DNA of 41,420 nt from Patescibacteria group bacterium. Lineage in GTDB: Bacteria; Patescibacteriota; Dojkabacteria; J137. Shown in pieces: positions 7,497 through 34,972 of the stretch. Location: assembly GCA_016861265.1 (NCBI GenBank), contig BOLA01000002.1, positions 1 to 41,420 of the forward strand. Direction: 5' to 3'. The stretch's first letter is position 1; the number at the start of each line of letters is the position of its first letter. Made by a program: the position numbers and the translations under genes. The notes beneath the pieces were generated by a model. It saw only the letters and a program-made list of their open reading frames with translations. It was not told the origin of the DNA and ran no database searches.

Positions 7497-8427
7497 TTTG
7501 TTTATTATCCTTTTCTAATAGATGAATAAAAACATCTTCTAGTGTTGGTACGATCTTGTCAACTCTCTGAACAGCAATTAAATGTTTGCTTGTTAAAATT
7601 TCTCTGATATCTTTCTCACCCTTTGAGTTATCATTTAAAATTATATGTATGTAGTTGCCAAAAATTGAAGTTTCTCCAACCCAATCTTCCTTTTCTAATA
7701 TTTCCATACTTTCAACAACTTTATCGGATTCAATTTCTAAAATTGTATTCTTTATGTAATTTGTTTTAAGTTCCTTGGCATTTCCCTGAGCGATCAATCT
7801 TCCTGCATTTATCAAAATAATATCATTGCAAAATTCGGCTTCATCTAAGTAATGAGTTGTAACCAGCACAGTTGTTCCTGCTGCAGAAAGATCATTTATC
7901 AAATCCCAAAAATTTCTTCTGGAAACAGGGTCAACACCACTGGTTGGTTCATCTAAAAAAACTATTTTGGGTTCGTGTATTACTGCTGTGCCAAGTGCTA
8001 ACCTTTGTTTAATTCCACCTGGTAAAGAGCCAGTGAGAAGTTTTTCTTTTCCTTCAAGATTAGCCACTTTCAAAACCCATTTTTTCCGTTCCAAATATTT
8101 TTTGCCTGTTAATCCATAGACACCTGCAAAGAAACGAATATTTTCTTCAACCGTAAGATCGTTGTACAAGGAAAATTTTTGTGACATATATCCTATTTGC
8201 GTTTTAACTTTATCGGCTTCATTCATAATGCTATAATTACCTACCAAGGCATCACCAGAGCTTGGCTCAAGAATTCCAATAAGCATTCTGATCGTTGTTG
8301 ATTTTCCGGCACCATTTGCCCCCAGAAAACCAAATATTTCTCCTTGTTTTACATTGAAGGATATATCGTTAACAGCTTTAAAGTTTCCGAATACTTTTGA
8401 TAGATTTTTTACTTCAATTGTATTCAT
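7486..8427 (-). CDS. ABC transporter ATP-binding protein
   Basis: Walker A GANGAGKST, signature LPGGIKQ, Walker B VFLDEPT, H-loop TTH. Confidence 0.95.
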   Translation of the reverse strand: MNTIEVKNLSKVFGNFKAVNDISFNVKQGEIFGFLGANGAGKSTTIRMLIGILEPSSGDALVGNYSIMNEADKVKTQIGYMSQKFSLYNDLTVEENIRFFAGVYGLTGKKYLERKKWVLKVANLEGKEKLLTGSLPGGIKQRLALGTAVIHEPKIVFLDEPTSGVDPVSRRNFWDLINDLSAAGTTVLVTTHYLDEAEFCNDIILINAGRLIAQGNAKELKTNYIKNTILEIESDKVVESMEILEKEDWVGETSIFGNYIHIILNDNSKGEKDIREILTSKHLIAVQRVDKIVPTLEDVFIHLLEKDNKQNVS

Positions 8428-9743
8428 TAGTAAATATTTCTCCCTAATGATTTTTCTAATCTTGTTTTTGCTATTTTATAATCAACAAGAGCGGTTTTAA
8501 GATTTGTTGCACTTTGTAATTCAGAAACTTCTGCGTCTATTAGGTCAGTGCTTGTTGCTAACTGAGCGTTATATTTTTCTGATGTTATGCGGTAATTTTC
8601 TGATGCCTGTTCTAAACTTAATTTGCTTACCTCTACTTTTTCATTTGCTTTAACTACACTTAAATAACTTTGATAAACTTCAACTTCAATATTATCCACC
8701 GTTTTCTCCAGTATGGTTCTTGTTTGAACCTCTAACTCTTTTGCCTGAGTTGTTTGAGATGAAGTTAAACCCCAATTCCAAATATCCCAACTAAGAGTAA
8801 CGCCAACATCCCAGGTGTCATTCCACTCTCCAACCAAAGGCTGCACTCTTGTGTTTGGGTTACTGTAGTAATAATTACCAGTTAAATAAATACTTGGAAA
8901 CCATCCAGATTGCGCTGCTGTAATATTTTCGTTTGCGGCATGAAGTTTATATTGCAGTGATTTTAATTCATTTCTATTTGCTTTAGCTTCAGAAAGTAAT
9001 TCGTCAATGTTAGCGGTAAATGAATCGGTTTTAATATCTTCAGAAGAAATTTCTGTAACAGATTCTAACGGTAATCCTAATGATTTATTAAAAACCACAC
9101 TTGCAACATCCAAATTATTTTCCGCTTCAATTAAAAGTAATTTTGTGTTTGAGTATTGTACCTGTAGTTTTAAGTAATCGTTTTGAGTTGCAAGTCCGTT
9201 TTCTAAAAAGTTTTTTGTATCGTTAAGATGATTTTCAATTTGTTTAAGACTTTTTAGAAGTAACTCTCTTACTTCTTGTGCTTTATAATAATTCCAGAAT
9301 GCAGTATGGATATTGAAAGCTGCTTCGTTCTTATCCTTAGAGTATTCCAATTCTGTTGCATTATAATTATAACTTGCAGCTTTTTTGGATGAGAGTAATT
9401 TGAAGCCGGTAAATAATGGCTGCTGAAATGAAAGTTTTAAATTATAATTATCAAGCACTGGGTCGGATATTTTAATTGGCGTTGGTGAAAATGGAGTAAC
9501 TACTTCAAATGGCGGAACATTATCACTCAATCGCGTGTAGTTTGCCATAAATTTAAATTGCGGCAAAAACATTGAATTTATTTCCGATACCTTCGCATCA
9601 GAACTTATTACTTTCGATTGAGAAATCTTCAGATCTTTGCTGTTTTTAAGTCCATACTCTATACTTTCACTAAGTGTCAGTTTTTTGTTTTGTGGAAACA
9701 GTATTGAAGTCAGTATTATCGCTATAACTAATATTTTTTTCAT
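8427..9743 (-). CDS. TolC-family outer-membrane efflux protein
   Basis: Signal peptide; two OEP-type repeats, YNAQLATSTDLIDAE C-terminal motif; sits within an ABC/HlyD operon. Confidence 0.9.
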   Translation of the reverse strand: MKKILVIAIILTSILFPQNKKLTLSESIEYGLKNSKDLKISQSKVISSDAKVSEINSMFLPQFKFMANYTRLSDNVPPFEVVTPFSPTPIKISDPVLDNYNLKLSFQQPLFTGFKLLSSKKAASYNYNATELEYSKDKNEAAFNIHTAFWNYYKAQEVRELLLKSLKQIENHLNDTKNFLENGLATQNDYLKLQVQYSNTKLLLIEAENNLDVASVVFNKSLGLPLESVTEISSEDIKTDSFTANIDELLSEAKANRNELKSLQYKLHAANENITAAQSGWFPSIYLTGNYYYSNPNTRVQPLVGEWNDTWDVGVTLSWDIWNWGLTSSQTTQAKELEVQTRTILEKTVDNIEVEVYQSYLSVVKANEKVEVSKLSLEQASENYRITSEKYNAQLATSTDLIDAEVSELQSATNLKTALVDYKIAKTRLEKSLGRNIY

Positions 9744-9777
9744 TTTATAATCCTCTTATAATTTCTTTCTTTATTAA

Positions 9778-10707
9778 TCATGATGCCTTACTTACTAGGT
9801 GGATAAAAACGTTTTCAAGAGATGGTGTAATTATTCGGTTGTCAACTATTTGAATTTTATTATCAACCAAAAGTTTTTCTAAATCCTGGTACTGATTATC
9901 ATAATTTTGAAGAGCAACATTAAGCCTATCGCCGTACATTTGAACTTCAAAATCTGCTCCTGCTTTTATTAAGTTGTAAGCTTCTCGAATCGGTGAGCAG
10001 ACAATTTCTACAATTTGTGCTTTTAATGATGCCTTAACATTTTTAGGAGTATCCCAGCTTATGATCTCACCATTATTCATAAGTGCAATACGATTACATC
10101 TTTCTGCTTCATCTAGATAAGGCGTTGTCATAAAAATTGTTATTCCATCCTTTTGTAGATCGGATAATATTTTCCAAAAATCTCTTCGTGAAACCGGATC
10201 AACACCTGTCGTTGGCTCATCTAAAAATATTATCTTGGGCTTGTGTATTAGAGTGCAAGCCAATGCAAGCTTCTGTTTCATACCTCCTGAAAGTTTATCT
10301 GCAAGCCTGTCTCTAAATGGTGTTAATCTTGTAAATTCTAATAATTCATTTCGTCTGTCTTTAAAATTTTTCACTCCATGGATATCTGCAAAGAATTCAA
10401 TATTTTCATCAATAGTTAGATCACCATACAGAGAAAATTTTTGCGATAAGTATCCAATTTCATTCTTAATCAGGTTTTGTTGTGTCAACAGATCATAACC
10501 GAGAACCTTAGCATTACCTGAATCAGGTCTTAACAAGCCAGTTAACATTCTTATTGTAGTTGTCTTTCCTGCGCCGTCTGGTCCAACAAGTCCAAACATT
10601 TCCCCTTCAGAAACTGAATATGAAACTCCTTTTACCGCAGTAACTTTTCCGTAATTCCTTTTTAGGCTTTCTATAATTATTGCATTTTCCATTTTATGAT
10701 TCTCCAT
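9778..10707 (-). CDS. ABC transporter ATP-binding protein
   Basis: Walker A GPDGAGKTT, LSGGMKQ, IFLDEPTTG. Confidence 0.95.
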   Translation of the reverse strand: MENHKMENAIIIESLKRNYGKVTAVKGVSYSVSEGEMFGLVGPDGAGKTTTIRMLTGLLRPDSGNAKVLGYDLLTQQNLIKNEIGYLSQKFSLYGDLTIDENIEFFADIHGVKNFKDRRNELLEFTRLTPFRDRLADKLSGGMKQKLALACTLIHKPKIIFLDEPTTGVDPVSRRDFWKILSDLQKDGITIFMTTPYLDEAERCNRIALMNNGEIISWDTPKNVKASLKAQIVEIVCSPIREAYNLIKAGADFEVQMYGDRLNVALQNYDNQYQDLEKLLVDNKIQIVDNRIITPSLENVFIHLVSKAS

Positions 10708-22717: not shown

Positions 22718-23585
22718 CTACAATTTTAGTTTCTTTTTTGATTTTGTTTTTACCATTAATGGCTGAGTGTATTTTTCATAGAGCTCAAAAAGGAATTCTA
22801 TTCTTTTTGTTTCGTTTGGGAAGGGCTGGGGACGGTAGCATAAATCTACCGCTTTGTCTAATTCCTGATGCGCTTTTACTAATGCCGGCGGCATTGTAAG
22901 AGGATCGTATAAATCTGCAAGACTGCTGTTTGGAAATTCTTTCCTTGTATCTAAAACTTTTTGTGCTTTTTCTTCTACAAGTTTTATTTGTTTGTTTGTT
23001 GGATTTTCCGGCCAAAGAAAGTTGTTGTAAACAATATCGTTTGAATATCTAAATCTGCTTTCTAATCTAACCAAACTTGTTTAACCCAAGCCATAAGCAT
23101 TTCAGAAGTCAATACGCCAAAATGGGACTTAGATGTTTTAGAAATTGAAAGACAACTATCTGCAACGATGTAATCCTTACTGAAGTAACCTAGAGGTATA
23201 TACTTTCTATTTTCAGAAGAATGTCTGGGTAACATAATATAATTTGAATTTGGTTGTCTAATTTCTCCAACTAAAGTTGAGTAAAGTGCTAATTTCTTTG
23301 TCGCCATTCTAACACTATCTGCCCTATGATTTTTAACAGCTTCAATACGTTCCATAACTTTAGTGAAACCTTTAAGCGTACCAGGATCAACATCAATTAA
23401 CCACAAACACCATCGATTAGTATTATTAATAAACTCTTTTACTGATAAAAATGGTTTAATAAATTTATTCAATTCCGGATTTATATTAAGGATTTCTTTC
23501 TTTTCATCATCATTTAATAAAAGAGTGCCACCATCATTAGGCATATTGCCAAAATTAATTTCCGGAACATCGCAAATAGTGTTAG
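22718..23585 (-). pseudogene. C-terminal fragment of an MmeI-like type IIL/IIG restriction-modification enzyme, 5'-truncated and frameshifted near 23070
   Basis: NFGNMPNDGG, EIRQP...PRHSSENRKYIPLGY, HFGVLTS, RLESRFRYSNDIVYNNF, SLADLYDPLTMPPALVKAHQELDKAVDLCY; no nuclease or methyltransferase motifs present. Confidence 0.85.
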
Positions 23586-23775: not shown

Positions 23776-23950
23776 AATCTGGCCCTGGTTTAAATTCTCT
23801 CATTGATGGAGTAGTAAATGTTCTTGCATCATCAAATGGGTTTTTTGGTTTTTTCTGTTGAGCAAGCAGCTTATTAAAAACTACATCCGCTTTTTCTTTA
23901 GATCTATTCTTTTGCTTTTCAAGCATCTGTTTATCGATATTATTTTTCAT
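23768..23950 (-). CDS. Small basic hypothetical protein
   Basis: 60 aa, preceded by a GGAGG Shine-Dalgarno. Confidence 0.55.
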   Translation of the reverse strand: MKNNIDKQMLEKQKNRSKEKADVVFNKLLAQQKKPKNPFDDARTFTTPSMREFKPGPDYA

Positions 23951-23989
23951 TTTAATTCCTCCAAAGGTTTAGTTTAATATTTTAATCAT

Positions 23990-24376
23990 TTATAAATCGC
24001 TTCTGAAATATTTCTCTCTATACCGTCTTAAATGAACTTTGTTAAAAGATAGGTAAATACATATATCTTCTTGAAATTCACGATAATTATATCCAAGTAT
24101 TTTTACAGCAGTTATGAATGAGCCGTTAGAGATGTATTCACCAAAATATTTTTCAACATAAAACTTCAGCTGAAGACTGTTTTTTAAGTTCTTGAAAGAT
24201 TTATTTGGTTTATAAAACTCAACCAACCAAAAGATGCATTTCTGGATTTCATCTGTAGCATTTAGTAAAGTCTCCCTGCCTCTTATATATTCTGGACTGG
24301 AAATATCTCTGTTAATTCCGTCATAAATCACTTCCGGATAATTATCCAGATATTTTATAATTGTTTCTTTTTCCAT
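23990..24376 (-). CDS. Hypothetical protein of phage/primase-associated type
   Basis: GAGGA Shine-Dalgarno; SLQLKFYVEKYFGEYISNGSFITAVKILGY resembles a motif I associate with primase-linked phage proteins (from memory). Confidence 0.55.
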   Translation of the reverse strand: MEKETIIKYLDNYPEVIYDGINRDISSPEYIRGRETLLNATDEIQKCIFWLVEFYKPNKSFKNLKNSLQLKFYVEKYFGEYISNGSFITAVKILGYNYREFQEDICIYLSFNKVHLRRYREKYFRSDL

Positions 24377-24379
24377 CGT

Positions 24380-24679
24380 TTAATCCTCCTCAGGAAATAT
24401 CAGGTGCTTATAATAAGCTGCTGGAACTGTCCCTCTTTGAACCCCAACATAGATAGCTGACTTGAGATTGACTGGTCTTTGCCAGTTGCAGACTTGACTT
24501 AAGTATCTCAGAGTCGAAGCACTAACATATTCCTTGAGAATTTTGCTTAGCTCTTCAGCTCCTTTGTACATACCGTATCTTATCCATACCTGTTTTACTT
24601 CTTCAAGCCCGATTGTGTTTATTAGTTTTTGAGTGCTGGTGTTTTTTCGTTTTCCTATTTGGTTGATATCCCTAGTCAT
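24380..24679 (-). CDS. Small hypothetical protein, possibly DNA-binding
   Basis: Strong GGAGG Shine-Dalgarno; basic N-terminus; helical AEELSKILKEYVSASTLRYLS segment. Confidence 0.55.
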   Translation of the reverse strand: MTRDINQIGKRKNTSTQKLINTIGLEEVKQVWIRYGMYKGAEELSKILKEYVSASTLRYLSQVCNWQRPVNLKSAIYVGVQRGTVPAAYYKHLIFPEED

Positions 24680-24766
24680 AATTCCCTCCTTAATTTGTTG
24701 TACCTACCTCGGTTTAATCATTCTTTTAATGTCTCTTTGTAGTAGACCTGCCTCCTTCGAAGTTCA

Positions 24767-25050
24767 GGTAACTAAAGGTAACCAGAGGTAACCAAATGTT
24801 TTGTTTTTAGTTTAAATTCGCAATAGTTACCCCTGTTACCTGGTTACCCCAATTTTTAAGTTGGTTGGAGAAATAATTAATTATTTTTTTCCATCCCCAG
24901 TTAAAAAAGTTTTTCCTAATTAATTATTTATTTTCTGATATTAGAAAATATAGGTAACCAGGTAACCTACCCCCCTTTCTTTAGTTTTTAGTTTAAATTC
25001 CAACAATCCAGAGGTAACTTTCGGGTAACCTAAAGGTAACCGGGGTAACC
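24767..25050. repeat. Iteron array / candidate replication origin: 12 GGTAAC(C) copies in four clusters around an AT-rich core
   Basis: Forward copies at 24767, 24777, 24787, 24953, 24961, 25013, 25024, 25035, 25044; reverse GTTACC at 24826, 24835, 24843; 17-bp direct repeat GTTTTTAGTTTAAATTC at 24803 and 24984; palindrome AAATAATTAATTATTT at 24871-24886. Confidence 0.8.
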
Positions 25051-25094
25051 AAATTCCAGCACAACCAGGATAGATTGTGCCGGGTAATATGTAA

Positions 25095-26957
25095 TTACTT
25101 AGATTCATATACTTTCATTGATATTCCATCAAATTTTTTTGTCGTTTCCTCAACTCCTTTTAACTTTAATCTTTTCAGTGTCGACTTATAATTATGATAT
25201 TGAAAGTGATACTTGCATATCTTACTCATATACCTTGCTGGAATTACTCCGTGCAGATCAATCTTATCTTCTACCATTGCAGCAATATCTGTTTTCAATC
25301 CCATATCCTTTTCTGGTTCAGTGATTGGAAATATTTCATCAAGCAGAAAATAACTCGCATCCTTCGCTTTTAATCTTTCAGCAAATTCTTCGTATTCATC
25401 TTTTGATAATGCTTTCAATATGTTCTTTGCTTCTGTTTCAATTGGATGATTTGCAAGCTCCCTATCGTAATCTAATTTGAAAATAATATTTGCAAATTCC
25501 GAGAGTTCAGCTTTTATATCAGGTTCAAGATCCTTGAGGCTTTTATAGATAGTTAACTCACTTACCTTCTTTGCATTATCATTTCTAATTACATTAAATC
25601 TCCTGTCTTCATCATCCAGAAATATTGGATGTTCACTGTTCGAGAATAAAATGAAATTCATAAAGTTGCTTGTTTGAAATGTATCAACACCCTTTATTTC
25701 AATGCTCTGGTATGGAGCAGTAATTAAATCCTTTAACGATTCCTTGCGATGAAGATTTTCTTTAGCATTACCTGCACTAAAAACTTCATTGTATCCTCGC
25801 AGAAAACAATTCATATCAATCTTATTAAAGTTTTTTGCGATTCTGCTGCCATTCATTAACTGAGATTGTTTTTCACCAAATAGCGGCATTAATATTCTGA
25901 TAAATAATAAATCTTTGCCAATGCCCTGCACATTAGAAGTAATTAACCACGCTGTGTATGACTTTACTCTTGCCTGTAGAATGAATGCAATCCAGTTCAG
26001 AAATCTTTCAAGATATTCTTTCTGACCAAAGATGTTAATCATAATTTCATATATAACTTTACATCTCTTCTCTAATTCAGAAACAACTTGATTCAAGGCA
26101 AGGGGTAGTAAGGTAGTATAATCCTTTTTCATATACTCACTCTCTTCAAACAAATTATAATATTTATCATTCAAACCTCCGTGCAAGCCCGGATTAAATA
26201 TTATTTCTCTTCTCGGTAAATAAGAACGAATATTCGGATCAATGTTTTTCTGCATACAGTAATTATCAAAATCAGCTGCATTCTTGAATATGTAAAGAGG
26301 ACCATCACCATTATAACTTTCATACCCGATCATTGACGGACCACCAACAGACTCATTCCAGAATAATTTACTCTTTGCTGCATCTATCTCTTTACTATCC
26401 TGCCAATAGGTTTTGCTTTCTGATGAACAGAAAATATAATACTGCCCAACATCATTGATATCAATGAATGCATTATGTGTATGCGGATGTGTTCTCTTTG
26501 AATGATCGCAGTAAGGACAGAATATTTTTGTTTTACCTGAAATATTTCTAACCTTCTCCCTTGTAACACCATCTTCAAGAGTAACTTCATCATCAAGTGA
26601 AATTGTTATCTCTTCTTTTTTTGGTCTTCCTGGTTTTTTCTTTTTTATTTTTAATTTTTCATCGTCCCAAAAATTTAGAGATAAAAAGTTCATTGCTTTT
26701 TTTCTTCTTAATCTGTTTAGAGATGTATTCACAGTTATCTGGTAAATCCAGGTTGATAGTTTGGAATCTGCTCGAAAAGAATTGATGGAATTGAAAACTT
26801 TAATGAAAACATCCTGAGTAACTTCCTCGGCATCTTCATTATTGCCGGTCATACGAAAGCAAACGCTATAAACCATACGGGAATATTGGTCATATACATA
26901 TTTGTATATAAACTCATCACCGCTTTTAAGGTTTTCAATTATCTTTGCTTCTTCCAT
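25095..26957 (-). CDS. Chimeric ORF: ECF sigma-70 region 2 (about aa 1-100) fused in frame to the Zn-finger + D5/DUF5906-type SF3 helicase part of a phage/plasmid primase
   Basis: N-terminus EDAEEVTQDVFIKVF...FRADSKLSTWIYQITVNTSLNRLRR is sigma region 2; then CPYCDH...FC; ERFLNWIAFILQ, Walker A QGIGKD, YNEV (Walker B), NFMNFILFSN, DRRFNV. Confidence 0.8.
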   Translation of the reverse strand: MEEAKIIENLKSGDEFIYKYVYDQYSRMVYSVCFRMTGNNEDAEEVTQDVFIKVFNSINSFRADSKLSTWIYQITVNTSLNRLRRKKAMNFLSLNFWDDEKLKIKKKKPGRPKKEEITISLDDEVTLEDGVTREKVRNISGKTKIFCPYCDHSKRTHPHTHNAFIDINDVGQYYIFCSSESKTYWQDSKEIDAAKSKLFWNESVGGPSMIGYESYNGDGPLYIFKNAADFDNYCMQKNIDPNIRSYLPRREIIFNPGLHGGLNDKYYNLFEESEYMKKDYTTLLPLALNQVVSELEKRCKVIYEIMINIFGQKEYLERFLNWIAFILQARVKSYTAWLITSNVQGIGKDLLFIRILMPLFGEKQSQLMNGSRIAKNFNKIDMNCFLRGYNEVFSAGNAKENLHRKESLKDLITAPYQSIEIKGVDTFQTSNFMNFILFSNSEHPIFLDDEDRRFNVIRNDNAKKVSELTIYKSLKDLEPDIKAELSEFANIIFKLDYDRELANHPIETEAKNILKALSKDEYEEFAERLKAKDASYFLLDEIFPITEPEKDMGLKTDIAAMVEDKIDLHGVIPARYMSKICKYHFQYHNYKSTLKRLKLKGVEETTKKFDGISMKVYESK

Positions 26958-33960: not shown

Positions 33961-34972
33961 TGATTAATTCTATTGTCTTTTGTGTTTGTGATGATTCATA
34001 ACATTTTTCTAATAAATAAACTGTATTCAAGGCTTCTTTCAATCCACCCTTAATAAAATTTTTGTTCTGCATATTGTTAGCGAATTCAAAAAATAAATTA
34101 ACATAGAGTCCGGTATAATGAGATTTATCAGACACGTTCGGAACAGCAATTATTTCATCATTACCATTTTTGCTTTTGACTAAATATTCTTCTCCACTGT
34201 AATGCAGACTTCCTTCTTTCGAAATTAATTTGGCTTCATTCTTTCTGGAAATAGAGGCCCAGCTGAGATTAATTTGAATTATTCCTCGCTCAAACTCTAA
34301 AATTACTTGCGAAGTGTCTTCTACCTGGAAATTATTATGCGCCAGATTATGATTAATAGCTGTAACTTTATTCGGTTGCCCCAACAACCAGTTTGCTAGG
34401 TAGAGATAATGAAATCCCGTATCGGATAAAATGCCGCCGCCGCTAATTTCTTTATTCAAACGCCAGGGAGTTGTGTCTGCATTAAGTCCCGGATCAGCTC
34501 CGGTTCTAAACACATTTAATTGAATAAATATATTAGCAATATCTAACTGTTCAATAAAAGATTTAAAGTGTTTCCATAAAGAAGAATATTTATACTGATG
34601 ACAGGGTATAAATAGAATATTCTTTCCGTTAAGATTTGAATAAAGTTCTTTTGCTTCTGCATAAGAAATGGTGAACGGTTTTTCACAAATAATATGAATA
34701 CCTTTATCAACAGCCCACTCTATTATTTCTTTGTGATATTTGGGAGGCGTAGTTATATCAATAAAATCAACTTTATTATTTGAGTACATTTCGTTTAATG
34801 ATTCATAAAAATTTATACTACTATACTCTTTCCTACATCTCTCCCTTATATTAATATCTACTTCTACCGCAGAAGTTATATCAATACTTTTTTGCAATTC
34901 TTCTGATTGAAAAGCTTCAAGATGATTAGTTCTTGCTATTTTGCCAAAACCAACTATAGCGCCTTTAATCAT
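33953..34972 (-). CDS. Gfo/Idh/MocA-family NAD(P)-dependent oxidoreductase (inositol dehydrogenase-like); likely start is the ATG at 34972
   Basis: GAIVGFGKIA Rossmann motif, ITTPPKYH, ICEKPF, GGGILSDTGFHYL. Confidence 0.88.
   Translation of the reverse strand: MIKGAIVGFGKIARTNHLEAFQSEELQKSIDITSAVEVDINIRERCRKEYSSINFYESLNEMYSNNKVDFIDITTPPKYHKEIIEWAVDKGIHIICEKPFTISYAEAKELYSNLNGKNILFIPCHQYKYSSLWKHFKSFIEQLDIANIFIQLNVFRTGADPGLNADTTPWRLNKEISGGGILSDTGFHYLYLANWLLGQPNKVTAINHNLAHNNFQVEDTSQVILEFERGIIQINLSWASISRKNEAKLISKEGSLHYSGEEYLVKSKNGNDEIIAVPNVSDKSHYTGLYVNLFFEFANNMQNKNFIKGGLKEALNTVYLLEKCYESSQTQKTIELINE

What the first reader, a model, noticed from the sequence alone, without database searches (positions are those of the whole stretch)
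24767..25088. Highly structured iteron origin directly downstream of the helicase gene
Seen: 12 GGTAAC(C) copies in clusters of 3 forward, 3 reverse, 2 forward and 4 forward, mostly 8-11 bp apart (the first three exactly 10 bp). A 17-bp direct repeat GTTTTTAGTTTAAATTC follows the first and third clusters. An AT-rich core with the palindrome AAATAATTAATTATTT lies in the middle. Known: P4 and PICI/SaPI origins are short iterons in both orientations around an AT-rich region beside the primase-helicase gene. Inference: this is the element's replication origin and appears intact.
Basis: partly seen in the sequence, partly recalled or inferred. Interest (0 to 1): 0.68.

Follow-up and report, generated by a model that had tools for sequence, protein, structure and literature searches.

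The report
Iteron replication origin beside truncated primase-helicase
The repeat cluster is very probably the replication origin of a small mobile element of Ignavibacteria, built like the known origins of phage-satellite islands; the DNA site is intact here, but its own initiator gene has lost its primase part, so this is a well-supported but ordinary annotation.

Summary
Twelve exact GGTAAC(C) copies lie in 283 bp (24767-25050) of the 415-bp gap after the helicase gene, with a 17-bp direct repeat and an 80% AT core.

The origin reading is strongly supported by comparison.
- All 34 related primase-helicase loci with enough downstream DNA carry an array directly after the stop codon.
- The layout is always the same: 3-4 copies, 2 copies, a 90-112-nt AT-rich core, 2-4 inverted copies, 2-4 copies.
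- The repeat word changes in concert between protein clades (GGTAACC, AGGTAACA, GATTACC, AGGTTACA and others).
- A second element in the same lineage has an identical downstream gene, an unrelated DUF5906 helicase and a different array (TGGACA). Its identity to the window starts exactly at the array's edge, so the array belongs with the helicase.
- The helicase tail is predicted to be a winged helix.

This matches the published SaPI/PICI origin design, so it is a new member of a known kind. The site is intact. Its initiator is not: a sigma-factor fragment replaces the AEP primase domain found in full-length (718-aa) relatives. No binding or replication has been shown. The 41-kb 'circular' contig closes through a two-copy repeat, so it is not evidence that this origin fires.

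The parts
25095..26957 (-). 620-aa ORF. An ECF sigma region 2 fragment (residues 1 to about 95) is fused in frame to the C-terminal three quarters of a primase-helicase: AT-hook-like KKKKPGRPKK, Cys/His zinc-ribbon-like motif, DUF5906 SF3 helicase and a C-terminal winged helix. The N-terminal AEP primase domain of the 718-aa relatives is missing.
   Evidence: Pfam Sigma70_r2 at 22-87 and DUF5906 at 341-453. Alignment with 718-aa relatives (A1). tblastn of P0004 residues 196-718 matches 26666-25098. Helicase core matches the NrS-1 primase, 6k9c. The N-terminal domain of relatives folds like AEP/PrimPol domains: 6zp9 at E 5e-5, then D5, CAPP and RepB'.
25056..25083 (-). Conserved 11-bp stem-loop 12 nt after the helicase stop. 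It is either a terminator-like element or a structural part of the origin.
   Evidence: Terminator-like hit. RNA fold -18.6 kcal/mol, z = -4.1. Compensatory changes in L006 (GCGCAA/TTGCGC) and L027 (GCACAG/CTGTGC) in alignment A3.
25013..25050 (.). Outer iteron cluster A (nearest the helicase): four GGTAAC(C) copies, 11/11/9 bp apart.
   Evidence: Same positions in L002, L003 and L025.
24984..25000 (.). Copy 2 of the 17-bp direct repeat GTTTTTAGTTTAAATTC, in the A-B spacer.
24953..24967 (.). Inner iteron cluster B: two GGTAACC copies 8 bp apart, facing the AT core.
24849..24952 (.). AT-rich core (80% A+T), the presumed unwinding region. It contains AAATAATTAATTATTT (24871-24886) and a near copy at 24918-24933.
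   Evidence: Both AT-rich flanks are conserved across classes I and II, around a variable centre of about 20 nt (A3). The core is 90-112 nt long in all loci.
24826..24848 (.). Inner iteron cluster C: three copies in the opposite orientation (GTTACC on the + strand), 9/8 bp apart.
24799..24825 (.). C-D spacer. It holds copy 1 of the 17-bp repeat (24803-24819) and, read in helicase orientation, the block ATTGCGAATTTAAACTAAAA. This block stays constant while the iterons change (classes I, II, IV).
24767..24793 (.). Outer iteron cluster D: three GGTAAC(C) copies exactly 10 bp apart.
   Evidence: L003, L025 and L052 have a fourth copy here.
24680..24750 (-). Leader of the 99-aa gene. It is not part of the array: it is shared at 99.9% identity with a second element whose array is different. 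24750 is the module boundary.
   Evidence: A branch at 24750 appears in 8 of 8 DNA runs. L053 and L055 match the window from 24750 downwards only.
24380..24679 (-). 99-aa orphan gene (family c2), the first gene after the array. It is present at 2x depth because a second element carries an identical copy.
23990..24376 (-). 128-aa orphan gene (family c3). A 404-nt alternative version exists in the same populations.

Best explanation
The 24767-25050 array, with its AT-rich centre, is the iteron-type replication origin (ori) of a small integrated element of Ignavibacteria. The element's initiator is the adjacent DUF5906 (D5/SF3-type) primase-helicase.

Proposed mechanism (inferred, not shown):
1. 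The C-terminal winged helix of the helicase reads the 7-bp word GGTAACC.
2. The tightly spaced inner clusters B and C face each other across a 104-bp core of 80% A+T. They position helicase rings on either side.
3. The outer clusters A and D, spaced about one helical turn apart, add cooperative binding.
4. The core melts and the helicase loads itself.
5. In full-length relatives the N-terminal AEP primase then makes the first primer for the host polymerase.

In this window the DNA site is complete, but the initiator has lost its primase domain to an in-frame fusion with a sigma-factor fragment. The origin is therefore probably an orphan, or at best crippled.
For: 1. Position. The array starts 45 nt after the helicase stop.
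2. Universality. All 34 related loci with at least 150 nt of downstream DNA have an array at the same place. Top 6-mer counts are 5-13 per 450 nt, while 7 or more occur in only 0.5% of 2169 control windows.
3. Geometry. The four-cluster layout and the 90-112-nt AT core are conserved from 39% to 95% protein identity.
4. Concerted change. All of the roughly 12 copies switch word together between clades, while the spacers stay alignable. The words are GGTAACC, AGGTAACA, GATTACC, GATTACA, AGGTTACA, GGTTACT and ATATACTGAGTA. The classes follow the protein tree with the minimum possible 5 changes (0 of 200 shuffles as low).
5. Module boundary. A second element in the same lineage has a 99/99-identical downstream gene, an unrelated DUF5906 primase-helicase (23% identity, N-terminal part only) and a TGGACA/TGTCC array. 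Its identity to the window begins exactly at 24750, the edge of the array. It has no DUF5659 gene upstream. The helicase is therefore the only constant partner of the arrays.
6. Reader domain. The last 65 residues are predicted as a winged helix with pLDDT above 90. The nearest folds are the NrS-1 primase-helicase tail and, weakly, winged-helix regulators.
7. Design match. The layout fits the published SaPI/PICI origin. That origin has 6-12 penta- or hexanucleotide iterons immediately 3' of rep and an AT-rich centre. At least two iterons on each side point in opposite directions, and they are read by a C-terminal winged helix (PMC9371898; PMC6092414).
8. Selection. Within class I the array region is as conserved as the helicase coding sequence, or more so: 87-90% against 84-89%.
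Against: - No experiment exists: no binding, melting or replication data.
- Co-variation of the word with the protein clade could in part reflect simple linkage.
- The proposed wing-to-base match holds in most loci but fails in L052. There an SRV wing goes with mixed GGTAAC[C/T/A].
- Metatranscriptome contigs cover clusters D and C together with the 99-aa gene. Part of the array is therefore transcribed and may also act in regulation.
- No rise in depth around the site was seen, though Logan contig depth is too coarse to show one.
- The cognate initiator here lacks its primase domain.
Confidence: 0.8

Rival explanations
1. The array is a transcriptional operator/promoter region and not an origin. 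A DNA-binding protein, either the helicase tail or another factor, occupies the repeats to control the downstream 99-aa/128-aa genes.
For: It lies upstream of the 99-aa gene. Metatranscriptome contigs X30 (24724-24874) and X31 (24638-24810) join clusters D and C to that gene. A terminator-like hairpin separates it from the helicase gene.
Against: - An identical 99-aa gene and leader sit behind a completely different array in the second element, so the repeats are not tied to that gene.
- Arrays are present in all loci, whereas the 99-aa family was found in only 13 of 23.
- The mirror layout around a long AT-rich core is the layout of an origin.
- No sigma-70-type promoter was found, although the scan does not cover Bacteroidota-type promoters.
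- A dual role is not excluded.
Confidence: 0.08
2. The array is a packaging (pac/cos) site or a partition (centromere-like) site, bound by a small terminase or a ParB/ParG-type protein.
For: Such sites are also arrays of short repeats. The downstream orphan genes have no assigned function.
Against: - No terminase, capsid or ParA/ParB genes appear in any of the element maps.
- The family is absent from IMG/VR viral contigs.
- The array travels with the helicase, not with the downstream genes.
Confidence: 0.04
3. GGTAAC resembles the -35 box of ECF sigma promoters, and the sigma part of the fusion protein reads the repeats.
For: The fusion carries Sigma70_r2. From general knowledge, ECF -35 boxes contain an AAC motif.
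Against: - The same arrays sit beside 34 helicases that have no sigma part.
- The fragment lacks region 4, the part that reads -35 boxes.
- The repeat word changes with the helicase clade.
Confidence: 0.01

Closest known systems
Replication origins of SaPIs and other PICIs (SaPI1/SaPIbov1 Rep-ori, SaPI5 PriRep5, E. coli EcCICFT073 pri-rep-ori; PMC9371898, PMC6092414)
   Same: - The origin lies immediately 3' of the initiator-helicase gene.
- It has 6-12 short (5-7 bp) iterons in two sets around an AT-rich centre, with the inner sets pointing in opposite directions.
- The initiator is a self-contained primase plus helicase with a C-terminal winged helix.
- The iteron word differs between related elements.
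   Different: - The helicase here is of the DUF5906/D5 SF3 type with an AEP-like primase. It is not the SaPI Rep, which PMC9371898 places in the pre-sensor II insert clade.
- The four-cluster layout has outer clusters about 50 and 35 nt from the inner ones, and conserved non-iteron spacer blocks.
- The host phylum is Ignavibacteriota.
- No PICI hallmark genes (repressor, packaging, interference) were found. An integrase occurs only in some relatives.
[quoted passage not shown] 2002)
   Same: One polypeptide combines primase, SF3 helicase and a C-terminal winged-helix origin binder. The origin is made of short repeats.
   Different: The P4 primase is of the Toprim type (PMC4234260); here it is AEP-like. 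P4 needs a second cis site (crr). No second array exists in this assembly.
pRN1 ORF904 replicon of Sulfolobus (PMC4234260)
   Same: The domain order is the same: AEP prim-pol, SF3 helicase, winged helix. The essential cis element lies just downstream of the replication gene. A terminator-like element and a stem-loop sit in that region.
   Different: The pRN1 origin is a 100-nt stem-loop without iterons. Here the iterons and AT core dominate, and the hairpin is only 28 nt.
Nitratiruptor phage NrS-1 primase-helicase (PDB 6k9c, 6k9e, 6lrb)
   Same: It is the closest solved structure for the helicase core (E 1e-21) and for the C-terminal 151 residues (E 8e-5).
   Different: Identity is only 18-27%. 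I did not compare its origin.

Membership tests
SaPI/PICI-type iteron origin | Lies immediately 3' of the replication initiator gene | tested here: met
   45 nt after the stop in the window. Same place in 34 of 34 related loci.
SaPI/PICI-type iteron origin | Two sets of short iterons (6-12 in all) flank an AT-rich region | tested here: met
   6 + 6 copies around a 104-bp core of 80% A+T.
SaPI/PICI-type iteron origin | At least two iterons on each side point in opposite directions | tested here: met
   Inner clusters B (2 forward) and C (3 reverse) face each other. Outer cluster D has the orientation of A and B. The word is nearly palindromic (GGT[A/T]ACC), so orientation rests on one base.
SaPI/PICI-type iteron origin | The initiator has a C-terminal winged helix that reads the iterons | tested here: inconclusive
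   The winged helix is predicted with pLDDT above 90. Fold matches to known winged helices are weak. Wing residues track the last iteron base in most clades but not in L052. Binding was not tested.
SaPI/PICI-type iteron origin | The array plus its cognate initiator supports autonomous replication | not testable with these tools
   Needs a plasmid maintenance assay.
PICI (phage-inducible chromosomal island) as an element | Integrase, master repressor, and packaging or interference genes in the PICI order; helper-phage induction | tested here: not met
   The window has none of these. Relatives show a tyrosine integrase only in L011, L020 and L022. There are no PHROGs hits for the small genes. 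The family is absent from IMG/VR. Induction is not testable.
P4-type replicon | Toprim primase fused to a D5-type helicase, plus a second cis site (crr) | tested here: not met
   The N-terminal domain of relatives folds like AEP PrimPol, not Toprim. There is only one array in the assembly.
Classical iteron plasmid origin (RepA/Pi/TrfA type) | Rep_3-type initiator, 17-22-bp iterons, DnaA boxes | tested here: not met
   The initiator is a helicase and the iterons are 6-7 bp. There is no TTWTNCACA box in or near the gap. The single match in the window is at 34679.

The most novel reading that the evidence does not exclude
The sigma-fragment::helicase fusion may still be a working initiator. It keeps the AT-hook, zinc motif, helicase and winged helix, and it would bind and open this intact origin. 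The lost primase would be replaced by host priming, perhaps by RNA polymerase recruited through sigma region 2. The 41.3-kb circular contig would then be a real episome, carrying respiratory and lipid operons and maintained from a captured satellite origin.
Probability: 0.04. Interest if true: 0.8.

Novelty: new member of a known kind. Interest (0 to 1): 0.3.

Why it matters
- It gives a confident origin annotation for an uncharacterised family of AEP-primase/SF3-helicase elements that is widespread in Ignavibacteriota.
- It shows that the satellite-island origin design extends to this phylum and to a different helicase family.
- The family offers at least six natural initiator/iteron pairs with different words. 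These are a possible source of orthogonal minimal replicons for a group of bacteria with no genetic tools, and a natural series for studying how a winged helix changes DNA specificity.
- For this genome, the origin is a relic beside a crippled initiator, and the circular contig should not be read as a plasmid on this evidence.

Tried and rejected
- Rfam scan of 24300-25300: only a chance snoRNA hit at E 0.69, so no known RNA.
- Sigma-70 promoter scan: no sites. It does not cover Bacteroidota-type promoters.
- DnaA boxes: none near the array.
- ECF -35 idea: rejected, because the arrays sit beside helicases without any sigma part.
- 99-aa protein as the repeat binder: rejected, because an identical protein sits behind a different array.
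- DUF5659 protein as binder: unlikely, because it is absent from the second element and from the window.
- Simple wing code (KK with ...ACC, xR[VIL] with ...ACA). It was predicted correctly for L051 but failed for L052, so I keep it only as a lead.
- IMG/VR scan: no relatives. Annotated phages and plasmids hold only helicase cores below 30% identity.
- Looking for the intact locus in 30 'relatives' of the assembly: none carry the helicase.
- Depth profiles from Logan contigs are flat per contig and cannot show origin firing.

Full report
**1. Observation**

The 415-bp non-coding gap 24680-25094 lies between two genes on the minus strand. Upstream of it is the stop of a 620-aa ORF (25095-26957). 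Downstream is the start of a 99-aa ORF (24380-24679).

The gap holds 12 exact GGTAAC words in four clusters:
- 24767/24777/24787, forward, exactly 10 bp apart;
- 24826/24835/24843, reverse;
- 24953/24961, forward;
- 25013/25024/25035/25044, forward.

The window as a whole has 25 copies against 9.5 +/- 3.0 in shuffles. The other 41 kb holds 13, so 0.14 are expected per 450 nt. Nothing comparable exists elsewhere in the 1.18-Mb assembly.

The 17-bp direct repeat (24803-24819 and 24984-25000) and the palindrome AAATAATTAATTATTT (24871-24886) are exactly as described. The stretch between the inner clusters (24849-24952) is 80% A+T. It is among the least stable 0.3-0.9% of 100-nt windows.

**2. The neighbouring gene**

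The 620-aa ORF has Sigma70_r2 at residues 22-87 and DUF5906 (D5-type SF3 helicase) at 341-453. Its helicase core matches the phage NrS-1 primase-helicase.

Database relatives are about 718 aa long and have no sigma part. The alignment shows that the window's protein joins the family at about its residue 95, just before a conserved KKKKPGRPKK motif (A1; tblastn).

The roughly 235 N-terminal residues that are missing here carry invariant DxD, HTTxNH and DKxRV motifs. They have no Pfam match. They are predicted with mean pLDDT 85 to fold like AEP primase-polymerases. The best matches are cyanophage S-2L PrimPol at E 5e-5, then vaccinia D5, CAPP and RepB'.

Intact relatives are therefore AEP primase, zinc motif, SF3 helicase and C-terminal domain in one chain. 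The window's copy has lost the primase. I confirmed the junction and the loss, but not the deletion history.

**3. Comparative test of the origin reading**

I fetched 23 loci from species genomes, 15 from metagenomes and two more by exact protein look-up. All 34 with at least 150 nt after the stop codon carry a dense array of one short word at that place. Counts are 5-13 copies per 450 nt. In 2169 control windows from the same loci, the best word reaches 7 copies in only 0.5%.

The layout is the same throughout, from 95% down to 39% protein identity:
- 3-4 copies, then about 50 nt;
- 2 tightly spaced copies;
- a 90-112-nt AT-rich core;
- 2-4 copies in the other orientation, then about 35 nt;
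- 2-4 copies about one helical turn apart.

The word itself differs by clade:

| Word | Loci |
|---|---|
| GGTAACC | window, L002, L003, L025 (L052: GGTAAC with a mixed seventh base) |
| AGGTAACA | L004-L006, L027, L028, L034-L036, L051 |
| GATTACC | L008, L014-L017 |
| GATTACA | L011, L022, L039 |
| AGGTTACA | L009, L010, L012, L013, L029, L031, L033, L037 |
| GGTTACT | L020, L021, L023 |
| ATATACTGAGTA | L038 |

These classes map onto the protein tree with the minimum possible number of changes (5; none of 200 shuffles as low).

The alignment of class I and class II gaps (A3) is the clearest evidence. The hairpin, the spacers and the AT-rich flanks align base for base. Yet all of the roughly 12 repeats differ between the classes at the same position. 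Such concerted change is hard to explain unless one sequence-specific reader recognises all copies.

**4.

Adjacency alone cannot separate the helicase from the small genes around it. A second element in the same lineage settles part of this.

In 8 of 8 DNA runs from several independent studies, the unitig covering the 99-aa gene (24404-24750) has twice the depth of its flanks. A branch leaves at 24750 into ...GTGGACAGGTGGACAGG.... Contigs L053 and L055 show what lies there:
- a 678-aa DUF5906 primase-helicase, only 23% identical to the family and only in the N-terminal part;
- a 281-nt gap with TGGACA/TGTCC repeats around AT-rich DNA;
- then, from exactly the base equivalent to 24750, the same leader, an identical 99-aa gene and the 128-aa gene.

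That element has no DUF5659 gene upstream. The array therefore travels with the helicase gene and not with the downstream genes or the DUF5659 gene.

The last 65 residues of the helicase are predicted with pLDDT above 90 as helix, strand, helix, helix and beta-hairpin, which is a winged helix. The whole C-terminal piece resembles the NrS-1 tail, and more weakly PadR/HSF/MarR winged helices.

At the tip of the wing, clades with words ending ...ACC have KK, while those ending ...ACA have xR[V/I/L]. This holds across two separate pairs of sister clades. The rule predicted L051 correctly but not L052, so I treat it as a lead only.

**5. Mechanism**

Shown: position, architecture, concerted change and module linkage.

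Inferred:
1. The winged helix reads the iterons.
2. The facing inner clusters place helicase rings on each side of the AT core, which melts.
3. The outer, helically phased clusters add cooperative binding.
4. The helicase loads itself, and the AEP domain of full-length proteins primes.

This is the model published for SaPI and PICI origins. There, 6-12 penta- or hexanucleotide iterons lie immediately downstream of rep around an AT-rich centre. At least two on each side point in opposite directions, and they are read by the winged helix of a self-loading helicase (PMC9371898; PMC6092414). The P4 alpha protein works similarly through a winged helix and repeats, and pRN1 also keeps its origin just downstream of ORF904 (PMC4234260).

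**6. State in this genome**

The site has the same 12 positions as in L002, which has a full-length gene. It is 415/415 identical in an independent 167-kb contig. Within class I the array region is 87-90% identical, against 84-89% for the helicase coding sequence. The site is therefore intact.

Its initiator lacks the primase domain, and the other primase-helicase in the lineage has a different repeat word. The origin is probably an orphan. Metatranscriptome contigs cover the 99-aa gene together with clusters D and C. Part of the array is therefore transcribed, and an added regulatory role cannot be excluded.

**7. The circular contig**

The window is a whole 41,420-bp contig with a 127-bp terminal overlap. 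An earlier first-reader note (e1-5215942) read this as a circle made by recombination and carrying a working origin.

My data point elsewhere:
- The cycle closes through the two-copy 99-aa/128-aa module, which has two entries and two exits.
- The exact fusion protein also lies inside contigs of 167 kb and of 0.2-1 Mb.
- In the 167-kb contig the fusion and origin are followed by the alternative 128-aa gene version and by different flanking genes.

The circle is most likely an assembly artefact of a repeat. It could be a loop-out that short reads cannot resolve. Either way it is not evidence that the origin fires.

**8. Rivals**

| Rival | Probability | Main objection |
|---|---|---|
| Pure operator or promoter role | 0.08 | The module swap and the origin-like symmetry. 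|
| Packaging or partition site | 0.04 | No such genes; the family is absent from viral contigs. |
| ECF -35 boxes read by the sigma fragment | 0.01 | 34 arrays sit beside helicases without any sigma part. |

**9. Novelty**

The kind of origin is well known, and this scan has met it repeatedly beside primase-helicases in E. coli satellites and prophages. What is new:
- the host phylum;
- the pairing with an AEP/DUF5906 initiator family that has no close relative in annotated phages or plasmids;
- the four-cluster layout with conserved spacer blocks;
- a natural series of at least six word classes.

I rate it a new member of a known kind, of modest interest.

Noticed in passing
L053:5720-5930 (branch point at window 24750): A second element in the same lineage has a 678-aa DUF5906 primase-helicase followed by a 281-nt gap with TGGACA/TGTCC repeats and AT-rich DNA. 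It then carries the same leader, an identical 99-aa gene and the 128-aa gene as the window. [Helicase + origin] behaves as a swappable cassette with a sharp boundary.
   Followed up: partly
window 1-41420 (whole contig); repeat 23911-24750: The contig is an assembler circle (127-bp terminal overlap), but the cycle closes through a module present at 2x depth with a branch at each end. The same fusion gene lies in a 167-kb contig with different downstream genes (alternative 128-aa gene, then DUF2231). The circle is probably a repeat artefact.
   Followed up: partly
assembly G000 (C1 against C2 and C3): The 30 nearest genomes are all about 1 Mb and none has the helicase. The tetranucleotide correlation of C2 with C1 is 0.956, against a median of 0.995 for 41-kb pieces of C1. 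All relatives of the window's helicase are from Ignavibacteriota-type MAGs. C2 may be mis-binned.
   Followed up: partly
window 25056-25083 (minus strand): An 11-bp stem-loop lies right after the helicase stop (-18.6 kcal/mol, z = -4.1), with compensatory changes in L006 and L027. It could be a terminator or a structural part of the origin, as in pRN1.
   Followed up: partly
protein P0006 (database; contig not retrievable): A second version of the same 620-aa sigma::helicase fusion exists. Its first 186 residues are 100% identical to the window's and the rest is about 88% identical, with an SRI wing of the class II type. This looks like gene conversion of the helicase 3' part after the fusion arose.
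   Followed up: partly
window 26615-26650 (residues 103-114 of the fusion): The AT-hook-like motif KKKKPGRPKK sits just after the fusion junction and is conserved in several clades of the family. It could contact the AT-rich core.
   Followed up: no
window 24799-24825; same block in L006, L009, L051: The C-D spacer contains ATTGCGAATTTAAAC (helicase orientation), which stays constant across word classes I, II and IV. It may be a host-factor site or a start site.
   Followed up: no
L003:867-2477, L006:3-815, L019:2-235: In three relatives the element lies a few kb from a truncated-looking dnaE ORF (PHP plus Pol III alpha NTPase domains only, 536 aa in L003). This could mark an insertion hot spot or a split gene.
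   Followed up: no
window 22718-23544 (minus strand): Two adjacent ORFs hold only the target-recognition and C-terminal domains of an MmeI-type restriction-modification enzyme. This is a remnant of a larger gene next to the element.
   Followed up: no
L011:6044-7438 and 7929-10340: Two copies of the primase-helicase lie in tandem, the first truncated. A short tandem repeat (AAAGAAAGTAGTATAGC) lies after the second gene's stop, before its array.
   Followed up: no
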